From: Shigella phage Henu11
Length of the DNA stretch: 64,000 bases
Strand: one strand, 5' to 3'
Sequence record: OM953433
Part shown: piece by piece, positions 1,515-47,644 of the stretch
Numbering within the stretch: position 1 is the stretch's first letter
How the letters are laid out: each line of letters starts with the position of its first letter
Position numbers and translations under genes: made by a program
The notes under the pieces: model-generated
Database searches by the model: none
What the model was told of the DNA's origin: nothing
The model's input: the letters and a program-made list of their open reading frames with translations, nothing else

Positions 1515-1760
1515 TTAATATCCTTCGTCAATAACGGTGATGTGTTGAGTGCTTGACTTACCATACCTGTAAGAAGTTGTTGTCTGTGAATTTGGGCAAC
1601 GGACTACTATTAAGTCATATTTAAATGTTGACCCATTAAGTTTGTATATTGAACAATCTCTCATCTCTGGAGGTAACTCATAGTTACTGTCTTGGTTGTC
1701 ATAACTTGGGTTACAGCCAGTTAGAAAAAGCACTCCAAGTGCAATGATTGTTTTCCACAT
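1515..1760 (-). CDS. putative lipoprotein
   Basis: 81 aa; N-terminal signal peptide with lipobox LTGC; four further Cys. Confidence 0.45.
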   Translation of the reverse strand: MWKTIIALGVLFLTGCNPSYDNQDSNYELPPEMRDCSIYKLNGSTFKYDLIVVRCPNSQTTTSYRYGKSSTQHITVIDEGY

Positions 1761-18958: not shown

Positions 18959-19200
18959 TGACTTATGTAATTTACTCAAAAGATGGATGCCCACAGTGTG
19001 TGACTGCTAAGAACTTTGCTCAGGCTCGTGGCTTAGACCATGTTGTTAGAATGCTTGGGAAAGATTATGAGCTAAGTGACCTGATGGATATTGCAAAGAT
19101 ACCTGTTCGTCAGATGCCTTTCATTATGAAGGTTGAAGATAATGAAATGAAACCTGTTGGAACACTACAAAACTTTATGGCAGAGGTGAATAATGCTTAA
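18958..19200 (+). CDS. glutaredoxin-like protein
   Basis: 80 aa; CPQC active-site motif near N-terminus; adjacent to nrd genes. Confidence 0.6.
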   Translation: MTYVIYSKDGCPQCVTAKNFAQARGLDHVVRMLGKDYELSDLMDIAKIPVRQMPFIMKVEDNEMKPVGTLQNFMAEVNNA

Positions 19201-19393
19201 ACGTTTATGGGATGGTTTTGTTGAAGATGCTCCGATGATTGCTCTGGCATTCATGGTTACTAGCCTATTTACTGATTTAAAACAAGGTGCTCTGTTTGGA
19301 GCTATGTTAGTATGGGTTATCTTTGAGATATTAGATATCAAACATGATTTGAGCGGAAAGCTTAAAAAGCTTATTGAAAAGTTTTCTAAGTAG
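19193..19393 (+). CDS. small membrane protein
   Basis: 66 aa; hydrophobic stretches. Confidence 0.35.
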   Translation: MLKRLWDGFVEDAPMIALAFMVTSLFTDLKQGALFGAMLVWVIFEILDIKHDLSGKLKKLIEKFSK

Positions 19394-21653: not shown

Positions 21654-21911
21654 ATGAGCTATGATTTTTGGCCTAAATTTTGGTTATGGTTTCTTGGGAT
21701 TGCATTAGTAATTCTGATAGGTTTTGCTGTGTATGACAGTTACCACACTAAGCTTTGGATGACTGCAAACCATTGTCAGCAAACGTCACAAAGTAGAAAT
21801 TACCTATACTATATGACAGTCATATCAGGCAACACTACAATCATCGTCCCACAAATCGGGACAGAGTACCTGTATGTTTGTGATAACAACCAAACAATAT
21901 GGTGGTATTGA
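21654..21911 (+). CDS. small membrane protein
   Basis: 85 aa; N-terminal TM segment. Confidence 0.35.
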   Translation: MSYDFWPKFWLWFLGIALVILIGFAVYDSYHTKLWMTANHCQQTSQSRNYLYYMTVISGNTTIIVPQIGTEYLYVCDNNQTIWWY

Positions 21912-32561: not shown

Positions 32562-32620
32562 TTGAAAAATGTGCAGGTTAGTGTATAATTATCTGCATGT
32601 TTAACAAAATAGGAGTGCAA

Positions 32621-33169
32621 ATGAAGAAATTTGTTTTAGGTTTGTGCTTATTCTTTACAGCACATTTAGCTACAGCGTCTGACTGTCCAGAGCTTACAAT
32701 CAGCCAGAAAGTTAATATGTTAAAAGCATATAACTATGGCGAAGGACAGATGGGAAAAGGTTGGGGAATCCCTTTAGCAGCTATAGCCTTACAAGAGTCA
32801 CAATTAGGTGTCATGTTAGAAAATAAAAAGACTCATGATTATGGTGTTTTCCAAAATCACTTGAAGACTGTTGTAAAGCGTAACAAGGTATCTCCAAAGG
32901 TTGCTAAGAAGAAGCTAGTAAGTGACTTCCATTACTCAGCGAAAGAGGCTCATAAGGAGCTATTATTCTGGACTAAGGTTCATGGTAACCCAGATGGAAA
33001 GTACTCTATGAAGCGTGTCCTAGCTTCTTATAATGCTGGTTACAAATACAAGATTCCAAAGGCTAGACAATACTCTCAAGATGTGTACAATAACATGAAA
33101 CTGCTTGCTCAATGTGAGTTTGCAACAAACATTAAAAAGGTAAAATATGAGCGAATCAAAACAATTTGA
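32621..33169 (+). CDS. secreted protein with lytic-transglycosylase-like motif
   Basis: signal peptide MKKFVLGLCLFFTAHLATA; AIALQESQLG resembles SLT-domain catalytic motif; start at ATG with AGGAG RBS. Confidence 0.45.
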   Translation: MKKFVLGLCLFFTAHLATASDCPELTISQKVNMLKAYNYGEGQMGKGWGIPLAAIALQESQLGVMLENKKTHDYGVFQNHLKTVVKRNKVSPKVAKKKLVSDFHYSAKEAHKELLFWTKVHGNPDGKYSMKRVLASYNAGYKYKIPKARQYSQDVYNNMKLLAQCEFATNIKKVKYERIKTI

Positions 33170-33842
33170 TATGGTTCTGTGTCATGCTTATGATATTAAG
33201 CCACTTGATTTAGATATCAGTTCTGCAAGTTGGTCAGATATTGCTAAAGCTGACTTTGCAGATACAGCAAGAAATGTTGTGTGTAGATTTGAAGACTTCC
33301 ACTCAACAAAGACACAGATTCCTTGTCAGGATTTGCTAACAGGTAAAACTGTAGATGTTGGTCGTAACAGCCTTATCTTGGTTGCAAAGAACTTGGAAGA
33401 AAAACGTAAAATGGTCTTAGCAGACATTGACGGTGTTCTTACAAGCTTTAATAAGGAGCTTAATGCAACTTTGTTAGATGATGGTACTTACTCACAGTAT
33501 ACTAACTTGGTAGACTCTCGCAGAGCTAAACCAACATATGTTTTTAACATCCTGTGTGGTATATCAAGAAATGCTGATATAGGATTCTTAACTGCTCGTG
33601 GAGAATCACAAAGAGTTGTCACACATCTTTTCCTGAATGAGAATGTAGACAGTGATTTCCTACTGTTTATGCGTGGATTTGGTGACAATGAGATTAGTGC
33701 AGAAAGTTTGAAAGTTCGTATGCTTCAGTCTTGCATTCTACCTTACTATGATGTAGTATGCTTTATAGAAGATACAGTGAAGAACGTGGCAAAGGTTGAA
33801 AGAATCTTACCACACATCAAAACAATGCTTGTTAAAAACTGA
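33147..33842 (+). CDS. putative HAD-superfamily phosphatase
   Basis: 231 aa; LADIDGVLT resembles HAD motif I. Confidence 0.4.
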   Translation: MSESKQFDMVLCHAYDIKPLDLDISSASWSDIAKADFADTARNVVCRFEDFHSTKTQIPCQDLLTGKTVDVGRNSLILVAKNLEEKRKMVLADIDGVLTSFNKELNATLLDDGTYSQYTNLVDSRRAKPTYVFNILCGISRNADIGFLTARGESQRVVTHLFLNENVDSDFLLFMRGFGDNEISAESLKVRMLQSCILPYYDVVCFIEDTVKNVAKVERILPHIKTMLVKN

Positions 33843-34318: not shown

Positions 34319-34329
34319 AGTTATTATAG

Positions 34330-34352
34330 AGGCTCCTTCGGGAGCCTTTTTC
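34330..34352 (+). terminator. rho-independent terminator
   Basis: GAGGCTCC-TTCG-GGAGCC plus TTTTT. Confidence 0.7.
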
Positions 34353-34370
34353 ATTTCTAGGAGAAGTTAA

Positions 34371-34718
34371 ATGACGTTTAAAGAATTTTGTCAAGCAGCT
34401 TTTGTAATCATTTTCTTAATAGGTGTTGGTGCTTGGGGAGGTTACACTTACAAGACCAGTCAAGTTAATGAAAAGGAGTTAACTAACCAGAGACTTGTAA
34501 GTGTTGCTAAAGATGCTTATCAAGAAGGTTTATCAAATCTTAGCTCCAATTACAAAAATGATTTGAAAGATGTGCTTGCTAAAAACAAACACACCAAAGA
34601 GGTATTGAACTATGAAAAAACTAAGACAGTCTTTATTAATGATTGTGCTACTGAGCCTTATGTCAGGGTGTTCAACGAACAAAGTGAACAGTACCTTCAA
34701 AAACTCCCAAGTAAGTGA
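34371..34718 (+). CDS. candidate i-spanin (N-terminal TM protein)
   Basis: 115 aa; N-terminal TM AFVIIFLIGVGAWGG then charged region; 3' end overlaps lipoprotein ORF out of frame. Confidence 0.4.
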   Translation: MTFKEFCQAAFVIIFLIGVGAWGGYTYKTSQVNEKELTNQRLVSVAKDAYQEGLSNLSSNYKNDLKDVLAKNKHTKEVLNYEKTKTVFINDCATEPYVRVFNEQSEQYLQKLPSK

Positions 34719-34881
34719 GAGTGACAAGTACACTCAAGAAGAAGCACGATATGAGGTTAAAGGCACTAAAGGTGAAGACCTTGCAAGTGCTCTTGAGTTT
34801 TATCGTGATGGTTACTATGAATGTACTATTAAGGCAAACAATTTAATTGATATGATTTTGTTAGGGAATAGGCAGCAATGA
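34612..34881 (+). CDS. candidate o-spanin (lipoprotein)
   Basis: 89 aa; signal peptide with lipobox LMSGC; begins inside 34371-34718 in another frame. Confidence 0.4.
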   Translation: MKKLRQSLLMIVLLSLMSGCSTNKVNSTFKNSQVSESDKYTQEEARYEVKGTKGEDLASALEFYRDGYYECTIKANNLIDMILLGNRQQ

Positions 34882-35694: not shown

Positions 35695-35887
35695 TTTCTG
35701 CACTAAGTGTTCTGTTGAGATGTTTGGAAAAGATACAGGAGACTTAAAAGGTCTCTTTACAAAGGCAGAATTTAAAGCTGGTTCAGCAATGCCAGTAATC
35801 TGTGAAGGTTGCGGTGCTTTATGGGTAGACCATGAAGGTAACCGAGTTAAACCATCTGAAGATAACGAACGTTGGGAGCATTACTAA
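35687..35887 (+). CDS. small zinc-ribbon protein
   Basis: 66 aa; CTKC...CEGC cysteine pairs. Confidence 0.4.
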   Translation: MADFCTKCSVEMFGKDTGDLKGLFTKAEFKAGSAMPVICEGCGALWVDHEGNRVKPSEDNERWEHY

Positions 35888-35888
35888 T

Positions 35889-36683
35889 ATGGGTATCGTA
35901 AAAATTATTAAAGGTGATATCTTTAAAGATTTTGATGGTAAGAAGTTTGATATCATTGGTCACGGTTGTAACTGCATGAACTTGATGCCAGCAGGTATCG
36001 CAGCAACAATTGCTAAACGCTACCCAAAAGCTTATGAAACTGACGCTGAAGTTTATGCTACAGTAGGTGGTGAAAATCATAACCCTAAGCATCTAATGCT
36101 TGGTAACATCTCTGTAGCACGTTTTAAGCAGGGTCGAATTGCTAACCTTTACACTCAGGTTATCACTGGCAAAGATGCACGATACAACGCCTTAGAAGCA
36201 GCTTTACAGCGTCTTAACAACTACTGTAAAGTTAATCAACTTAAGAAAGTTGGGCTTCCGATGATTGGTGCAGGGATTGGTGGTCTTGATAGCATGGCTG
36301 TACTGTCCATTATCAACCAGACTATGAAGGATGTTGACGTTTATATGTATGTCTATGAAGATAAGATGTACAGTCAGTTGACTAGTCCTGTTACTGGTTG
36401 GGAGAACTTCAGTGAGCCTCAATACTTTGATGGTGTTGCTGTGGTAGGCAAGGATAAAGTTACCCTCAAGGTGAAGCGTAATGGCAAGGTACACACCAGT
36501 TACCCTCCGGTTGAGAAGTACAATCGAAGTAACGCTCAAGTTACCCACCCGTTACAAGGCCACCACCACAGAGCGGTAACGTTTGGCGATGATGCAAGTG
36601 TATATATCAATGCGACTACAGAAGAGTTTGCAGAAGATTATATCACACATGAAAACGTAAACTATGTTGAAGCACGTAACTAA
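35889..36683 (+). CDS. macro-domain (ADP-ribose binding/processing) protein
   Basis: about 264 aa from ATG after upstream stop; IIKGDIF, FDIIGHGCNCMNLMPAGIA and LPMIGAGIGGLD resemble macro-domain glycine-rich motifs; C-terminal extension unknown. Confidence 0.6.
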   Translation: MGIVKIIKGDIFKDFDGKKFDIIGHGCNCMNLMPAGIAATIAKRYPKAYETDAEVYATVGGENHNPKHLMLGNISVARFKQGRIANLYTQVITGKDARYNALEAALQRLNNYCKVNQLKKVGLPMIGAGIGGLDSMAVLSIINQTMKDVDVYMYVYEDKMYSQLTSPVTGWENFSEPQYFDGVAVVGKDKVTLKVKRNGKVHTSYPPVEKYNRSNAQVTHPLQGHHHRAVTFGDDASVYINATTEEFAEDYITHENVNYVEARN

Positions 36684-36756: not shown

Positions 36757-36940
36757 ATTTTAAATTTGTGCAGGTATAGTTGCATAGAACTCTGGACAGA
36801 TTTCTTTAGCTGAACTCCAAAGGGAAAATTCATTTCAAATTTGTGCAGGTTTAGACTCCAAAGGGGTTTTTCATTTTCAATCTGTGCAGATGCAGTTGGA
36901 CTCCAAAGGGAAAATTCATTTTCAGTTTGTGCAGGTAGGT
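36749..36940. repeat. four direct ~40-bp repeats (CTCCAAAGGG..TTCATTT..TTTGTGCAGGT)
   Basis: copies near 36749, 36824, 36856, 36900; TGTGCAGGT also at 32566. Confidence 0.7.
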
Positions 36941-39069: not shown

Positions 39070-39366
39070 ATGTTTATTGCCGCAAACGTTAGAACTAAAT
39101 TAAGCCAGCTATTAAGCAATATTCAATTCATTGAATCCATGCGCCGTACCTCTGAAGCCGTAGAATGGTATCACGGAAAGATTGACAAAAGGGAAGTTGT
39201 GATTTGTGTATGGAGCTTTTGTAAAGAATACAGAAAGCCGTTGCTTCAGATAGATATCTATGATAATGCTAATAAATCAGCTATTAAATCCACAAAAGAT
39301 ATGGTAGATTCTTATGAAATTAGTCACACTGGTAAACTATTCCACAAAGGTAAAAACAAATGCTAA
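39070..39366 (+). CDS. small array protein
   Basis: 98 aa; conserved leader. Confidence 0.5.
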   Translation: MFIAANVRTKLSQLLSNIQFIESMRRTSEAVEWYHGKIDKREVVICVWSFCKEYRKPLLQIDIYDNANKSAIKSTKDMVDSYEISHTGKLFHKGKNKC

Positions 39367-39707
39367 TCACATACACTGCAATTTTTATCTCTATTGTGGC
39401 GCTCTATAAAGCCTTGCAAGCGCACAGTATAGCTAATAAGGCACTTACAAGGGATTTAAAAATAAATCTTGTACGGGGCTTTTTAGAGCGTTTGAGCTTA
39501 GAACAATTGAAACGTTTAGAGATGAGCTTTCGATTCAAAGCAGAGACATACCGGATTGATAACATCCTAGATGGTGATTTTAAATTAATCAGTGATTATG
39601 ACATACTTCTTGAGTCAATTCAAGATATAAACCTGAAAGATTATTATATTGTAATAGCACAAGAAATTAATAAAAAAGAGCTTGCAATGCAGAATCAAAA
39701 CAAGTAA
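39360..39707 (+). CDS. small array protein (N-terminal TM; C-terminus ..AMQNQNK encoded by cassette)
   Basis: 115 aa. Confidence 0.45.
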   Translation: MLITYTAIFISIVALYKALQAHSIANKALTRDLKINLVRGFLERLSLEQLKRLEMSFRFKAETYRIDNILDGDFKLISDYDILLESIQDINLKDYYIVIAQEINKKELAMQNQNK

Positions 39708-43555: not shown

Positions 43556-43807
43556 ATGGCTACTATCCGCGCAACTGTTAACAATTTTGGCTTCCATGTA
43601 TTAGATGTTAAATTTGATATGGTTGGAACTGGTGATGCTTTCGGTATGATTGAAATGTGTCTGAAGGCAACTATTCAGGACTACAATCCATCGGAAACAT
43701 TCTGGAAAGAAACTAAACAGGAAGTTTTAAAGGATGGTGTATCTTCTTACTATTGGGGTGATTCTCTTATCACGCTTTACTACCAAAAATTTGGTGTGAT
43801 TAACTAA
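43556..43807 (+). CDS. small array protein
   Basis: 83 aa; conserved leader; last gene before convergence region. Confidence 0.5.
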   Translation: MATIRATVNNFGFHVLDVKFDMVGTGDAFGMIEMCLKATIQDYNPSETFWKETKQEVLKDGVSSYYWGDSLITLYYQKFGVIN

Positions 43808-43848
43808 CAAGTCGCCGCAACGGGGCAAATAGCCCCAGATACCTATAC

Positions 43849-43871
43849 AGCCCCTTCAATGGGGCTTTTTT
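43849..43871 (+). terminator. rho-independent terminator
   Basis: AGCCCC-TTCAAT-GGGGCT plus TTTTTT. Confidence 0.65.
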
Positions 43872-44295
43872 ACGTCTTCCTAGAATCTTACCAGACATTT
43901 AGAACAATAACTCTATAGCTTACTCTATATCCTCTTATCAAATCAACTTAAATATAAGCCCATAACCCGAAAGGGAAGGGCAATCCCTAAAACGCTCTAT
44001 AACGCTCTATACGGGCTTATCATCTCATCTTAAGCAATCATATTAACCTACTCTTAAAAGCCCTTTATAGAGCTTTCTAGAGCCTTAAAAGAATCTTATA
44101 AGGGTATAAGCTTTATTATCTCGTTAGTATCTTGTGAATGGTTAAACAGGGGCTTGAAAGTTACTTAATAATGTGTTATGGGGAACTAAAAAGAGCTTAA
44201 AAGTAACGTAAAAGATGCTTAAAAGTAACGTAAAAGTTAGCCCCCTTTACATTCTCTTAACAAAATCTTAACAAATGCAACATAGTTATGCTTAT

Positions 44296-44356
44296 TAGAG
44301 ACTTGTTAGCCCCTTGTTAAATCCTTGTTAGAGGTATGTTAAGAGCTTGTTAGACT
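44296..44356. repeat. five 11-bp phased repeats (cTTGTTAg)
   Basis: TTGTTA cores at about 44304, 44315, 44326, 44337, 44348; 11-bp spacing. Confidence 0.75.
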
Positions 44357-44545
44357 CTTTGAAGTCCCTGTATAAGCCCCTAGAAAGCCCTATAAAGAGC
44401 TATACAGGCAATTGGGCTATAGTTACTATGGAGAACCTTAGAAATGGCTGTATAGAGCTATACAGGGCTTTTAAGAGGGCTTTTAAGAGAATCACTGAGA
44501 GAGGGAAGGGAACTATAGACCAAGAGATAGTGACCATGTTAATAG

Positions 44546-44762
44546 CTTGTTAAAAAGGTTTAGAACTTGTTAGCATCTTGTTAATTATCTTAACAAAATA
44601 ACTCTTAAGATTTAACTATTTAGCAACTTATAAGCAACTTGTTAGACTCTTGTTAGTAATGTTACAGACTTGTTAAGCTCTTGTTAGTTCTGTTAAGAGA
44701 CTGTTAAGGACTTTGAAGAGATGTTAAGAGCTTGAGAGAGTTGTTAAGAGATTGTTAATGAT
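44546..44762. repeat. array of about 15 10/11-bp phased repeats (nnTGTTAAGnn), some inverted
   Basis: densest run 44638-44760 with copies roughly every 11 bp. Confidence 0.75.
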
Positions 44763-45010
44763 ATTTTAAGATTTTGCAAAGGGGATGTTACAGGGCTGTT
44801 AAGGGCTACCAAGCAGATATACACCCTAGACAGATATTTTTCAGTTCCTTCAAAGAACCTAAAAAGTGACCTACCTAGTCTATTTTATAAAAATTTTATA
44901 GAACTGAATAACTATCTATACACTATCTAGTATAAAACAGGTAATAACAGGCTTATAAGATACCTTGTTAGTACCGTGTTAGACCTTGTAGGATAAGCCT
45001 TTACAGGGAA

Positions 45011-45280
45011 TACCTGTTTAGTGTTATATAACAGTCTATATAGAGGCTTAGTTGACCCTAGTGAACCATCTGTAGAGAGTACTCTCTGTGACATAGAGAT
45101 TAAGATGGATATAGGGGCTTCTAAGGGGCTATGAAGAGACTAGGAAGGTGATTATATAGGTTTGGAAGAGGGCTTGTTAGAGAGCTTTGTAGAGGGCTAT
45201 TTAGAAGGGGCTATATAGTTTCACTAGATAGAGACTAAGAGGCTATATAGATACTATATAATACTATATAGAGAGTATGC
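45011..45280. repeat. cluster of palindromic CTATATAG octamers
   Basis: copies near 45011, 45216, 45246, 45259, 45270; related CTATACAG/GTATAGAG copies at 44395-44470. Confidence 0.6.
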
Positions 45281-45360
45281 TTAGATAGGTTGTTTAGAAG
45301 GTCTAGATATTTTATCACATATCATGGTGACCCAAGATGAACGGAGTGAATCCAAATTTT

Positions 45361-45392
45361 ATAAAATAATAAAAGCCCCAAAAGAGGGGCTG
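45361..45392 (-). terminator. rho-independent terminator (minus strand)
   Basis: reverse complement AGCCCCTCTTTTGGGGCT followed by TTTATTATTTT. Confidence 0.6.
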
Positions 45393-45400
45393 TAAAGTTC

Positions 45401-47137: not shown

Positions 47138-47644
47138 CTAAAATTTTAGGTTGCATTCTTTACTTACCTCTTCAAACTTACTCTCAAACTCTACAATCTT
47201 CTTCTTGTAAGTTGTCATTCTCAAACATGAGAGGATGATACCAACTATTGGAATCACATACAAGAACCAAATCTCAGAAATTTTCTTCTCAGCTTGGTTA
47301 AACGTTAAATCCTGCATGTACATGCCACCGAATGAGATTACACAAATCATAGCAAGGAATACAGATAACATGATTGCTATTCCTGCCCACCCTCTGGTAT
47401 TATGTTCAGCATTTCTACGCTTATTTTCCAGATTGATAAGTTCGTTGTAGTCTGCTGAGAAGTCTCTGTAGAAAGCTTTCAAGTACTCTCTGCTGTAACC
47501 TTCAAAACATCCTGTACCAAACCAATTTTCACCTCCAAAGTGTGAAATAGTTCCTTCTTCACCGTTTGCTTTCACAATCTTGAAAGATACATGGTGTCTT
47601 GACTTCTCATAAGAAATCTGGTCTCTTGAATCTTCATAAATCAT
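47138..47644 (-). CDS. membrane protein
   Basis: 168 aa; two hydrophobic segments (GWAGIAIMLSVFLAMICVISFGG; IWFLYVIPIVGIILSCL). Confidence 0.5.
   Translation of the reverse strand: MIYEDSRDQISYEKSRHHVSFKIVKANGEEGTISHFGGENWFGTGCFEGYSREYLKAFYRDFSADYNELINLENKRRNAEHNTRGWAGIAIMLSVFLAMICVISFGGMYMQDLTFNQAEKKISEIWFLYVIPIVGIILSCLRMTTYKKKIVEFESKFEEVSKECNLKF

What the first reader, a model, noticed from the sequence alone, without database searches (positions are those of the whole stretch)
34371..34881. Candidate two-component spanin with overlapped architecture, far from the endolysin
A 115-aa protein with one N-terminal TM helix is followed by an 89-aa lipoprotein (lipobox LMSGC) whose start lies inside the 3' end of the first gene in another frame. 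This is the i-spanin/o-spanin arrangement, yet it lies about 16 kb from the endolysin gene and on the opposite strand block.
Basis: inference. Interest (0 to 1): 0.4.

Follow-up and report, generated by a model that had tools for sequence, protein, structure and literature searches.

The report
Known FelixO1-type overlapped two-component spanin
These two overlapping genes are the outer-membrane-disrupting "spanin" pair of a FelixO1/Moogle-like phage; the pair is real and conserved but already catalogued, and its distance from the endolysin gene is normal for this phage group.

Summary
ORF 34371-34718 encodes 115 aa with one N-terminal TM segment. ORF 34612-34881 encodes 89 aa with signal MKKLRQSLLMIVLLSLMSG|CST. 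The second ORF starts 107 nt inside the first, in the +1 frame. A soluble Phage_lysozyme endolysin lies 15.8 kb away on the minus strand.

The window is a Mooglevirus (Ounavirinae), 99% identical to Shigella phages KPS64, Sf19 and Sf17. In those records the pair is already annotated as i-spanin/o-spanin. The spanin census of Kongari et al. 2018 lists Felix01, wV8 and Moogle in the overlapped "JH2" family with the same geometry.

My own tests agree. All 48 complete related loci, from three phage groups, keep a +1-frame lipoprotein ORF. Codon-position variability shows both frames are coding, and the overlap is under double constraint. One periplasmic Cys is invariant in each protein. In Sashavirus phages the homologous pair directly follows holin and endolysin genes.

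Separation from the endolysin has a precedent in T4 and is the rule across Ounavirinae and Kuravirus.

No member of this family has been tested experimentally, so function rests on inference.

Verdict: a correct interpretation of an already known feature, of low interest.

The parts
34328..34359 (+). Intrinsic terminator (9-bp GC-rich stem, tetraloop, T-run) closing the upstream PNK/hypothetical-gene unit, immediately before the spanin genes
   Evidence: terminator scan; RNA fold, -16.4 kcal/mol, z = -2.07. A terminator is annotated at the same place in Michonne.
34359..34363 (+). Shine-Dalgarno AGGAG of the i-spanin gene, 7 nt upstream of the ATG
   Evidence: Read from the sequence. The same site is marked in the Kongari 2018 supplement for Moogle and Felix01.
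34371..34718 (+). i-spanin gene (115 aa): N-terminal TM segment at about residues 6-24, an 88-aa mostly helical periplasmic domain, invariant Cys92 and a conserved EKTK..F.N.C....Y...FNE motif
   Evidence: phrog_1152 'Rz-like spanin' E=4.2e-38. Annotated i-spanin in relatives.
34599..34603 (+). Shine-Dalgarno GAGGT of the o-spanin gene, lying inside the i-spanin coding sequence
   Evidence: Conserved as aaagaggta in all Ounavirinae loci. Marked in the Kongari supplement.
34612..34881 (+). o-spanin gene (89 aa): 19-aa SPase II signal, lipobox LMSG|C with Cys20 at 34669-34671, Ser at +2, and a 70-aa proline-free mature protein with invariant Cys71 and a conserved C-terminal LEFYRDGYYEC..K.NNLIDMIL segment
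   Evidence: phrog_4180 E=1.5e-48 and phrog_2425 E=9e-11. Annotated o-spanin in relatives.
34612..34718 (+). 107-nt dual-coding overlap: i-spanin residues 81-115 and o-spanin residues 1-35 (the 35 full o-frame codons; the +1 frame offset leaves a 2-nt remainder), read in the +1 frame
   Evidence: Nucleotide diversity is 0.059 with no third-position relief, against 0.127 and 0.161 in the single-coding flanks.
50719..51183 (-). Soluble endolysin (Phage_lysozyme/GH24 type, no N-terminal TM or SAR segment), the presumed functional partner whose peptidoglycan degradation frees the spanin complex

Best explanation
The pair is the two-component spanin of a Mooglevirus (FelixO1-like myovirus) and belongs to the catalogued overlapped 'JH2/FelixO1' spanin family.

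Shown here: the two genes, their overlap, the purifying selection on both frames, the TM and lipobox signals, the invariant cysteines, and the gene context in relatives.

Inferred from the lambda and T4 paradigms, in five steps:

1. The 115-aa protein inserts in the inner membrane by its N-terminal TM segment. Its roughly 88-residue, mainly helical domain lies in the periplasm.
2. The 89-aa protein is processed by signal peptidase II at LMSG|C and lipidated on Cys20. Because it has Ser rather than Asp at +2, the Lol pathway sorts it to the inner leaflet of the outer membrane.
3. The conserved C-terminal regions of the two proteins bind each other, forming a complex that spans the periplasm through the peptidoglycan mesh. 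The single invariant periplasmic cysteines, Cys92 and Cys71, make homotypic disulfide-linked dimers.
4. The complexes accumulate harmlessly. When holin-released endolysin (50719-51183) degrades the murein, they are free to move and change conformation. They then fuse the inner and outer membranes and complete lysis.
5. Because the murein restrains the complex after translation, the genes need not be co-transcribed with the endolysin. This explains their position in the rIIA/rIIB-PNK block 16 kb away.
For: - Near-identical phages annotate the pair as i-spanin/o-spanin, including the curated Michonne record and its paper.
- Kongari 2018 lists Felix01, wV8 and Moogle as overlapped i-/o-spanins of the JH2 family. 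The geometry matches: a 348-nt i-spanin gene (115 aa), 107-nt overlap, 89-aa o-spanin, 19-aa signal, CST after cleavage, and one periplasmic Cys in each.
- The i-spanin matches phrog_1152 'Rz-like spanin' at E=4e-38.
- TM and lipobox signals are present.
- All 48 complete related loci (Ounavirinae, Kuravirus, Sashavirus) carry a +1-frame lipobox ORF overlapping the 3' end of the TM-protein gene.
- Nucleotide diversity (pi) at codon positions 1/2/3 is 0.085/0.061/0.235 in the i-only part and 0.088/0.058/0.334 in the o-only part, each in its own frame. In the overlap it is 0.064/0.050/0.064.
- Invariant residues include the lipid-acceptor Cys20, plus Cys71 in the o-spanin and Cys92 in the i-spanin.
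- In Sergei the homologous pair sits in a holin-endolysin-holin-spanin cassette. In the 9 Sashavirus loci (Sergei plus 8 IMG/VR contigs) it directly follows the holin genes. Both Sergei proteins fall in the same PHROGs as the window's pair.
- T4 spanins are functional although remote from holin and endolysin.
Against: - No member of the JH2/FelixO1 family has been tested experimentally. The census states that essentially all experimental work was on lambda Rz/Rz1, and it adds only a T4 complementation test.
- There is no sequence similarity to lambda, T4 or other experimentally studied spanins.
- The mature o-spanin has no proline, unlike the proline-rich Rz1.
- The AlphaFold models have low confidence, pLDDT 54 and 59. 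They support only a crude secondary-structure picture.
- I did not run a dedicated coiled-coil prediction. The census predicts no coiled coil for Felix01 and one 27-residue segment for Moogle.
- I did not locate the holin.
- Expression timing is unknown.
Confidence: 0.9

Rival explanations
1. The lipoprotein, with or without its membrane partner, is a superinfection-exclusion or receptor-masking factor like T5 Llp or the Cor proteins. It would be made early to protect the infected cell and would have no role in lysis.
For: - The pair lies in an early/middle-type gene block, after rIIA/rIIB and PNK and before a macro-domain gene.
- A terminator precedes it.
- PHROGs labels the o-spanin families 4180 and 2425 as unknown function.
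Against: - The obligatory pairing with an overlapping type-II membrane-protein gene in 48/48 loci is the spanin signature. It is not a feature of Llp or Cor.
- The homologous pair sits at the end of a holin-endolysin cassette in Sashavirus.
- A separate solo lipoprotein gene exists at 1515..1760 that fits an exclusion role better.
Confidence: 0.04
2. The pair is an envelope-spanning complex with another role, such as regulating lysis timing or signalling in the manner of an antiholin. It would be associated with the adjacent rII genes rather than with outer-membrane disruption.
For: - The pair lies about 1.9 kb downstream of rIIB.
- It has no similarity to experimentally proven spanins.
- The o-spanin is proline-free.
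Against: - Known periplasmic lysis-inhibition factors, such as T4 RI, are not lipoprotein/TM pairs (established knowledge).
- In Kuravirus and Sashavirus the pair occurs without rII neighbours.
- The features match every defining trait of two-component spanins that could be tested here.
Confidence: 0.04
3. The 89-aa ORF is a chance open frame inside and after a real gene, and not a gene itself.
For: - Many database records leave it unannotated or call it hypothetical.
- Metagenome gene callers truncate it to 68-73 aa.
Against: - The o-only segment shows strong third-position relaxation in the o frame, pi 0.334 against 0.088 and 0.058.
- The frame is open in all 29 unique Ounavirinae sequences.
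- Its start, Shine-Dalgarno sequence, lipobox Cys and C-terminal motif are conserved down to 27% identity in other phage families.
Confidence: 0.01

Closest known systems
JH2/FelixO1 overlapped two-component spanin family (Kongari et al. 2018, BMC Bioinformatics 19:326): Felix01 p014/p015 and the Moogle i-/o-spanin
   Same: - The geometry is identical: 115-aa i-spanin, 89-aa o-spanin, 107-nt overlap in the +1 frame.
- The same Shine-Dalgarno sequences, 19-aa signal, SG|CST cleavage context and single periplasmic Cys in each protein are present.
- The i-spanin is 77% identical to Felix01's and 90% to the Moogle locus's (L028).
- The o-spanin is 81% identical to Felix01's and 88% to Moogle's.
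- The neighbourhood is the same: rIIB, Vs.1-like protein, PNK, a hypothetical gene, then the spanins.
   Different: Only point substitutions. This is the same gene pair in a closely related phage.
Phage T4 PseT.3/PseT.2 spanin (separated architecture, experimentally functional)
   Same: - Sizes are similar (117 aa and 99 aa precursor).
- The i-spanin is a type-II membrane protein and the o-spanin is a lipoprotein.
- The o-spanin has predicted helical content and no proline-rich region.
- The genes are remote from holin and endolysin and lie near a polynucleotide kinase gene (pseT).
   Different: - No detectable sequence similarity, and different PHROGs: 739/812 against 1152/4180.
- T4's genes overlap by only 4 nt (the 'separated' class), against 107 nt here.
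- T4's i-spanin has no periplasmic Cys and its o-spanin has two essential ones. Here each protein has one.
- Gene order relative to PNK is reversed.
Phage lambda Rz/Rz1 (embedded architecture, the mechanistic paradigm)
   Same: An inner-membrane type-II protein is paired with an outer-membrane lipoprotein encoded in the +1 frame. Periplasmic cysteines are available for homotypic disulfides. The presumed mechanism is murein-restrained membrane fusion.
   Different: - Rz1 is wholly embedded in Rz, whereas here the second gene extends past the first.
- Rz1 is 40 aa when mature, proline-rich and unstructured. Here the mature protein is 70 aa and proline-free, with a predicted C-terminal helix.
- There are no Pfam Rz or Rz1 hits.
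- Lambda's genes sit in the S-R-Rz lysis cassette.
Sashavirus (phage Sergei gp65/gp66) and Kuravirus (phiEco32, EK5) spanins
   Same: - They are homologous in both components. The i-spanins match phrog_1152 at E=5e-27 and 3e-37. The o-spanins match phrog_2425, which the window's o-spanin also hits at 9e-11.
- They share the overlapped +1-frame architecture and conserved motifs.
   Different: - Identity is only 24-28%.
- Their o-spanins carry prolines in the linker and a second periplasmic Cys.
- Sergei's pair is inside a classical lysis cassette.

Membership tests
Two-component spanin (generic definition, Young laboratory) | i-spanin: a small integral inner-membrane protein with a single N-terminal TM segment and a periplasmic C-terminal domain | tested here: met
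   One hydrophobic segment at residues 6-24 (KD19 1.89), with no other segment in that range, followed by an 88-aa hydrophilic remainder. I did not run a dedicated topology predictor. The census's TM-prediction column reads TRUE for Felix01 and Moogle.
Two-component spanin (generic definition, Young laboratory) | o-spanin: a small lipoprotein with an SPase II signal and lipobox, and no inner-membrane retention signal (no Asp at +2) | tested here: met
   The sequence MKKLRQSLLMIVLLSLMSG|CST matches the PS51257-style rule, and +2 is Ser. Cys20 is invariant across six lineages. The profile's weak PDB hit is to the signal region of the OM lipoprotein BamE. LipoP and SignalP were not available here.
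Two-component spanin (generic definition, Young laboratory) | The two genes are adjacent in embedded, overlapped or separated architecture, with the i-spanin first | tested here: met
   Overlapped: the o-spanin starts 107 nt before the i-spanin stop, in the +1 frame. This arrangement is kept in 48/48 complete loci.
Two-component spanin (generic definition, Young laboratory) | At least one periplasmic cysteine, allowing intermolecular disulfide linkage | tested here: met
   Cys92 in the i-spanin and Cys71 in the o-spanin are both invariant. Disulfide formation itself was not tested.
Two-component spanin (generic definition, Young laboratory) | Required for outer-membrane disruption; complements lambda Rz/Rz1 defects; the two subunits interact through their C-termini | not testable with these tools
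   No experiment on any JH2/FelixO1-family member was found.
Two-component spanin (generic definition, Young laboratory) | Association with other lysis genes in at least some members | tested here: met
   In Sergei the homologous pair closes a holin-endolysin-holin cassette. In the 9 Sashavirus loci it directly follows the holin genes. It is not linked to lysis genes in Ounavirinae or Kuravirus.
JH2/FelixO1 overlapped spanin family (Kongari 2018) | Sequence similarity of both components to family members | tested here: met
   The i-spanin is 77% identical to Felix01's and the o-spanin 81%. The o-spanin is 88% identical to the NCBI entry 'o-spanin [Citrobacter phage Moogle]'. phrog_1152 E=4e-38.
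Lambda Rz/Rz1 family | Sequence similarity to Rz/Rz1; embedded gene; proline-rich Rz1; two coiled-coil domains in Rz | tested here: not met
   No Pfam hit to Rz or Rz1 families. The architecture is overlapped, not embedded. The mature o-spanin has 0 Pro. I made no coiled-coil prediction of my own. The census predicts none for Felix01 and one 27-residue segment for Moogle.
T4 PseT.3/PseT.2 family | Sequence similarity; separated architecture; two conserved Cys in the o-spanin and none in the i-spanin | tested here: not met
   BLASTP finds nothing beyond the TM segment. The PHROGs differ. The cysteine pattern is 1+1.

The most novel reading that the evidence does not exclude
The FelixO1-type pair could be more than a terminal lysis device. 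It sits in an early/middle-type block: rIIA, rIIB, a secreted Vs.1-like muramidase, PNK, then the spanins and a macro-domain gene. It is linked to a macro-domain gene in both Ounavirinae and Kuravirus. Its o-spanin is proline-free and helical, unlike Rz1.

Two readings are not excluded. The complex may be made early as a periplasm-spanning structure with an additional role, for example envelope remodelling or exclusion of superinfecting phage. Alternatively it may fuse membranes by a mechanism distinct from that of lambda Rz/Rz1.
Probability: 0.07. Interest if true: 0.45.

Novelty: already known. Interest (0 to 1): 0.1.

Why it matters
The finding matters little beyond correct annotation, because the pair is the expected spanin of this phage group and is already in the literature and in GenBank.

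Two practical points follow.

1. Automated pipelines still miss or truncate this o-spanin. PHROGs 4180 and 2425 carry no function label. RefSeq calls FelixO1 p015 hypothetical, FIfi106 lacks the gene, and EK5 and Zyzzx start it too late. As a result, some papers wrongly report that only one spanin component is present.
2. The family has never been tested experimentally. It differs from lambda Rz1 in lacking prolines, so a complementation test would be cheap and would broaden the experimental base for spanin mechanisms.

Tried and rejected
- **Homology to T4 PseT.3/PseT.2.** The shared PNK neighbourhood suggested it. BLASTP found no alignment beyond the TM segment, and the PHROGs differ. Rejected at the sensitivity available. 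I did not attempt a profile-profile comparison against a T4-family alignment.
- **Solved-structure relatives.** None were found. The only hit was a weak one to the BamE signal region.
- **AlphaFold2 models of both proteins.** Confidence was low, pLDDT 54 and 59, from shallow alignments of close relatives. I did not run fold searches because the matches would be meaningless.
- **The search for related loci with the six-lineage i-spanin alignment.** I used single-protein queries instead.
- **The search for homologous proteins.** It returned only relatives at 55% identity or more, so it did not widen the family.
- **Locating the 'class III holin' mentioned for Michonne.**
  - It is not in Michonne 57000-81400.
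  - The membrane-protein candidates 19193-19393 and 21654-21911 are not annotated as holins in any relative.
  - No PHROG or Pfam holin hit appeared for any TM candidate.
  - The holin is left unidentified and may lie outside the window.
- **Chance-ORF explanation.** Rejected by the codon-position analysis.

Full report
**Observation**

Both ORFs exist at the stated coordinates: 34371..34718 (+, 115 aa) and 34612..34881 (+, 89 aa). The second starts 107 nt before the stop codon of the first, in the +1 frame.

The 115-aa protein has a single hydrophobic stretch at residues 6-24 (FCQAAFVIIFLIGVGAWGG). Its Kyte-Doolittle 19-residue mean is 1.89. The remaining 88 residues are hydrophilic.

The 89-aa protein begins MKKLRQSLLMIVLLSLMSG|CST. 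This satisfies a PROSITE PS51257-type lipobox rule, with Cys at position 20 and Ser at +2.

Only three of 649 ATG-initiated ORFs of 40 aa or more in the six frames of the window satisfy that rule. A lipobox ORF starting in the 3' end of a TM-protein gene is therefore not a likely accident.

Each ORF has a Shine-Dalgarno sequence at proper spacing: AGGAG at 34359-34363 and GAGGT at 34599-34603.

The endolysin is 50719..51183 on the minus strand. It matches phrog_7 (E=2.7e-55) and Pfam Phage_lysozyme (E=2.4e-38), and its N-terminus has no TM or SAR segment.

**What the window is**

The region is 99.4-98.4% identical to Shigella phages KPS64, Sf19, Sf17, Sf13 and others. It is 96% identical to Citrobacter phages Michonne and Mordin (genus Mooglevirus, subfamily Ounavirinae) and more distantly related to about 230 Felixounavirus records.

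In most of the closest records the two ORFs are already annotated as i-spanin and o-spanin. These include the manually curated Michonne record, which also marks both ribosome-binding sites and the upstream terminator. [quoted passage not shown]

The reference census of spanins (Kongari et al. 2018, PMC6139136) lists Felix01 (p014/p015), wV8 and Moogle as overlapped ('ovl') pairs. It gives a 348-nt i-spanin gene, a 107-nt overlap, an 89-aa o-spanin, a 19-aa signal, 'CST' after the cleavage site and one periplasmic Cys in each protein. It places them in the 'JH2' i-spanin family (15 members, including PhiEco32) and the JH2 o-spanin family (11 members). The finding is therefore a rediscovery of a catalogued feature.

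**Independent tests**

*Family placement.* The i-spanin matches phrog_1152 'Rz-like spanin' at E=4.2e-38. The o-spanin matches phrog_4180 (E=1.5e-48) and phrog_2425 (E=9e-11), both labelled 'unknown function', and only weakly a spanin PHROG. Pfam has no model for either.

*Breadth.* tblastn finds the i-spanin in 320 phage records and the o-spanin in 266. These extend to Hafnia and Erwinia Ounavirinae, to phiEco32-like podoviruses (Kuravirus) and to the siphovirus Sergei (Sashavirus).

*Pairing.* I examined 49 loci: the window, six GenBank loci and 42 IMG/VR contigs.
- 45 loci showed a +1-frame ORF with a lipobox overlapping the 3' end of the TM-protein gene.
- Three more have it with an INA|C lipobox that my regular expression was too strict to accept.
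- The last locus is cut by a contig end.
- In total, 48 of 48 complete loci carry the pair.

*Conserved residues.* Across six lineages at 24-81% identity, the invariant residues include the acylated Cys20, Thr22, Gly54, Cys71, Asn76 and Leu78 in the o-spanin. In the i-spanin they include Gly24, Glu82, Lys83, Phe88, Asn90, Cys92, Tyr97 and Asn102. One periplasmic cysteine per subunit is thus invariant. This fits the census's general rule that two-component spanins need intermolecular disulfides.

*Dual coding.* I compared 29 unique, gap-free Ounavirinae sequences. Nucleotide diversity (pi) by codon position was as follows.

| Segment | Frame | Position 1 | Position 2 | Position 3 | Mean |
|---|---|---|---|---|---|
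| i-only | i-spanin | 0.085 | 0.061 | 0.235 | 0.127 |
| o-only | o-spanin | 0.088 | 0.058 | 0.334 | 0.161 |
| overlap | i-spanin | 0.064 | 0.050 | 0.064 | 0.059 |

Each unique segment shows the third-position relaxation of a translated gene in its own frame. The overlap is two- to three-fold less variable and shows no relaxed position. The overlap is most constrained where it encodes mature o-spanin (mean 0.032). Both ORFs are therefore real genes and the overlap is under double constraint. This rules out a chance ORF.

*Context.* In phage Sergei the homologous pair closes a classical cassette: holin/antiholin, endolysin, holin/antiholin, i-spanin, o-spanin. Sergei's i-spanin matches phrog_1152 at E=5e-27 and its o-spanin matches phrog_2425 at E=8e-27. 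In the 9 Sashavirus loci (Sergei plus 8 IMG/VR contigs) the pair directly follows homologues of the Sergei holin genes. This is guilt by association from a distant branch of the same family.

In Ounavirinae and Kuravirus, by contrast, no endolysin lies within the flanks fetched (2.5-4 kb each side). Separation is the rule there.

*Structure.* No solved structure is related to either protein. The AlphaFold2 models are of low confidence.
- The i-spanin model (pLDDT 54) is mostly helical between residues 39 and 111.
- The o-spanin model (pLDDT 59) has a signal helix, a disordered stretch at residues 18-34 and a C-terminal helix at residues 54-88.
- This agrees with the census's secondary-structure tables: Felix01 i-spanin periplasmic domain 66% helix, o-spanin 20% helix and 16% strand. 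For coiled coils the census predicts none in Felix01 and one 27-residue segment in Moogle.
- I use these models only as crude support for a helical i-spanin, and for an o-spanin made of a flexible linker plus a structured C-terminal part.

**Expression context**

A strong intrinsic terminator at 34328-34349, followed by a T-run, lies directly upstream. The next predicted terminator on this strand is at 36853-36869, after the macro-domain gene. The pair probably heads, or is read through into, a unit of about eight small genes. A weak sigma-70-like match overlaps the terminator and is not evidence of a promoter. Timing is unknown.

**Mechanism (inferred from the lambda and T4 paradigms summarised in PMC6139136)**

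1. The i-spanin is anchored in the inner membrane.
2. The o-spanin is acylated at Cys20 and sorted to the outer membrane, because +2 is Ser.
3. The conserved C-terminal regions bind across the periplasm, and Cys92 and Cys71 form homotypic disulfides.
4. The complex is held inactive by the murein meshwork until the holin-released endolysin destroys it.
5. The complex then fuses the two membranes.

This post-translational restraint explains why linkage to the endolysin is unnecessary. The legend of Fig. [quoted passage not shown]

T4's spanin genes also lie next to the polynucleotide kinase gene pseT, as here (PNK at 33147-33842). However, the proteins show no detectable similarity and the gene order is reversed. 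I treat this as a parallel, not as homology.

**Differences from the paradigms**

- The mature o-spanin has no proline, whereas Rz1 is proline-rich.
- The architecture is overlapped, not embedded (lambda) or separated (T4).
- The cysteine pattern is 1+1, against 2+1 in lambda and 0+2 in T4.
- Kuravirus and Sashavirus homologues carry linker prolines and a second o-spanin Cys.

**What is not established**

- No member of this family has been tested experimentally.
- Lipidation, localisation, subunit interaction and lysis function are all inferred.
- I could not find the holin.

**Verdict**

The feature is already known, and the supposedly odd distance from the endolysin is normal for this phage group and for T4. 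Interest is low.

Noticed in passing
window 32597..33169 (+); likely true start at 32621: This is a secreted lysozyme-like protein lying 1.2 kb upstream of the spanins, between rIIB and PNK. It has a signal peptide (MKKFVLGLCLFFTAHLATA|SD) and a weak SLT-transglycosylase match (Pfam PF01464 E=0.002; phrog_600, unknown function). The FelixO1 record calls its homologue the '20.7 kDa protein in vs-regB intergenic region', i.e. T4 Vs.1-like, and Michonne notes a 'lysozyme-like domain'. It is conserved in 30 related loci. A second, exported muramidase-like protein near the spanins could bear on lysis or on envelope remodelling.
   Followed up: partly
window 1515..1760 (-): This is a second predicted lipoprotein of 81 aa (MWKTIIALGVLFLTG|CNPS; phrog_902, unknown function). 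The upstream ORF has no TM segment, so it is a solo lipoprotein and not a second spanin pair. It is a candidate superinfection-exclusion or receptor-masking factor.
   Followed up: partly
window 35832..36683 (+); L003 2963-3403; L005 2724-3506: A macro-domain (Appr-1-p processing) gene lies downstream of the spanin pair in 35 related loci. In Erwinia phage FIfi106 and in the Kuravirus phage EK5 it follows the pair directly (about 8 nt after the unannotated o-spanin ORF in FIfi106; abutting it in EK5; EK5 shows 25% identity, E=3e-5). In the window it is separated from the pair by five small ORFs. The linkage of spanins and a macro domain across unrelated phage families is unexplained.
   Followed up: partly
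L003 (EK5) 2703-2963; L004 (Zyzzx) 2429-2725; L005 (FIfi106) 2441-2716; L006 (FelixO1) 2501-2770: The o-spanin is mis-annotated or missing in public records. EK5 and Zyzzx start it downstream of the signal peptide and lipobox. FIfi106 does not annotate it. FelixO1 RefSeq calls p015 hypothetical. PHROGs 4180 and 2425 carry no function label. Metagenome gene callers truncate it to 68-73 aa. This explains papers that report only one spanin component in Felixounaviruses (PMC8300805, PMC9951933).
   Followed up: yes
window 55464..60863 (+): An array of 26 tRNA genes is interspersed with a few small ORFs, matching the tRNA cluster annotated in Michonne and studied in Sf14.
   Followed up: partly
window about 43800..45400: This ORF-poor stretch lies at the switch from the plus-strand gene block to the minus-strand block. 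Collinearity with Sf19 extends only to about window 41850 (Sf19 88414 of 90375). By extrapolation the point where related linear records are opened would fall near here, so it may contain the genome terminus or regulatory DNA.
   Followed up: no
window 47138..47644 (-), 21654..21911 (+), 39360..39707 (+), 19193..19393 (+): These small membrane proteins of unknown function have one or two TM segments each. None is annotated or profile-matched as a holin, so the holin of this phage remains unidentified within the window.
   Followed up: partly
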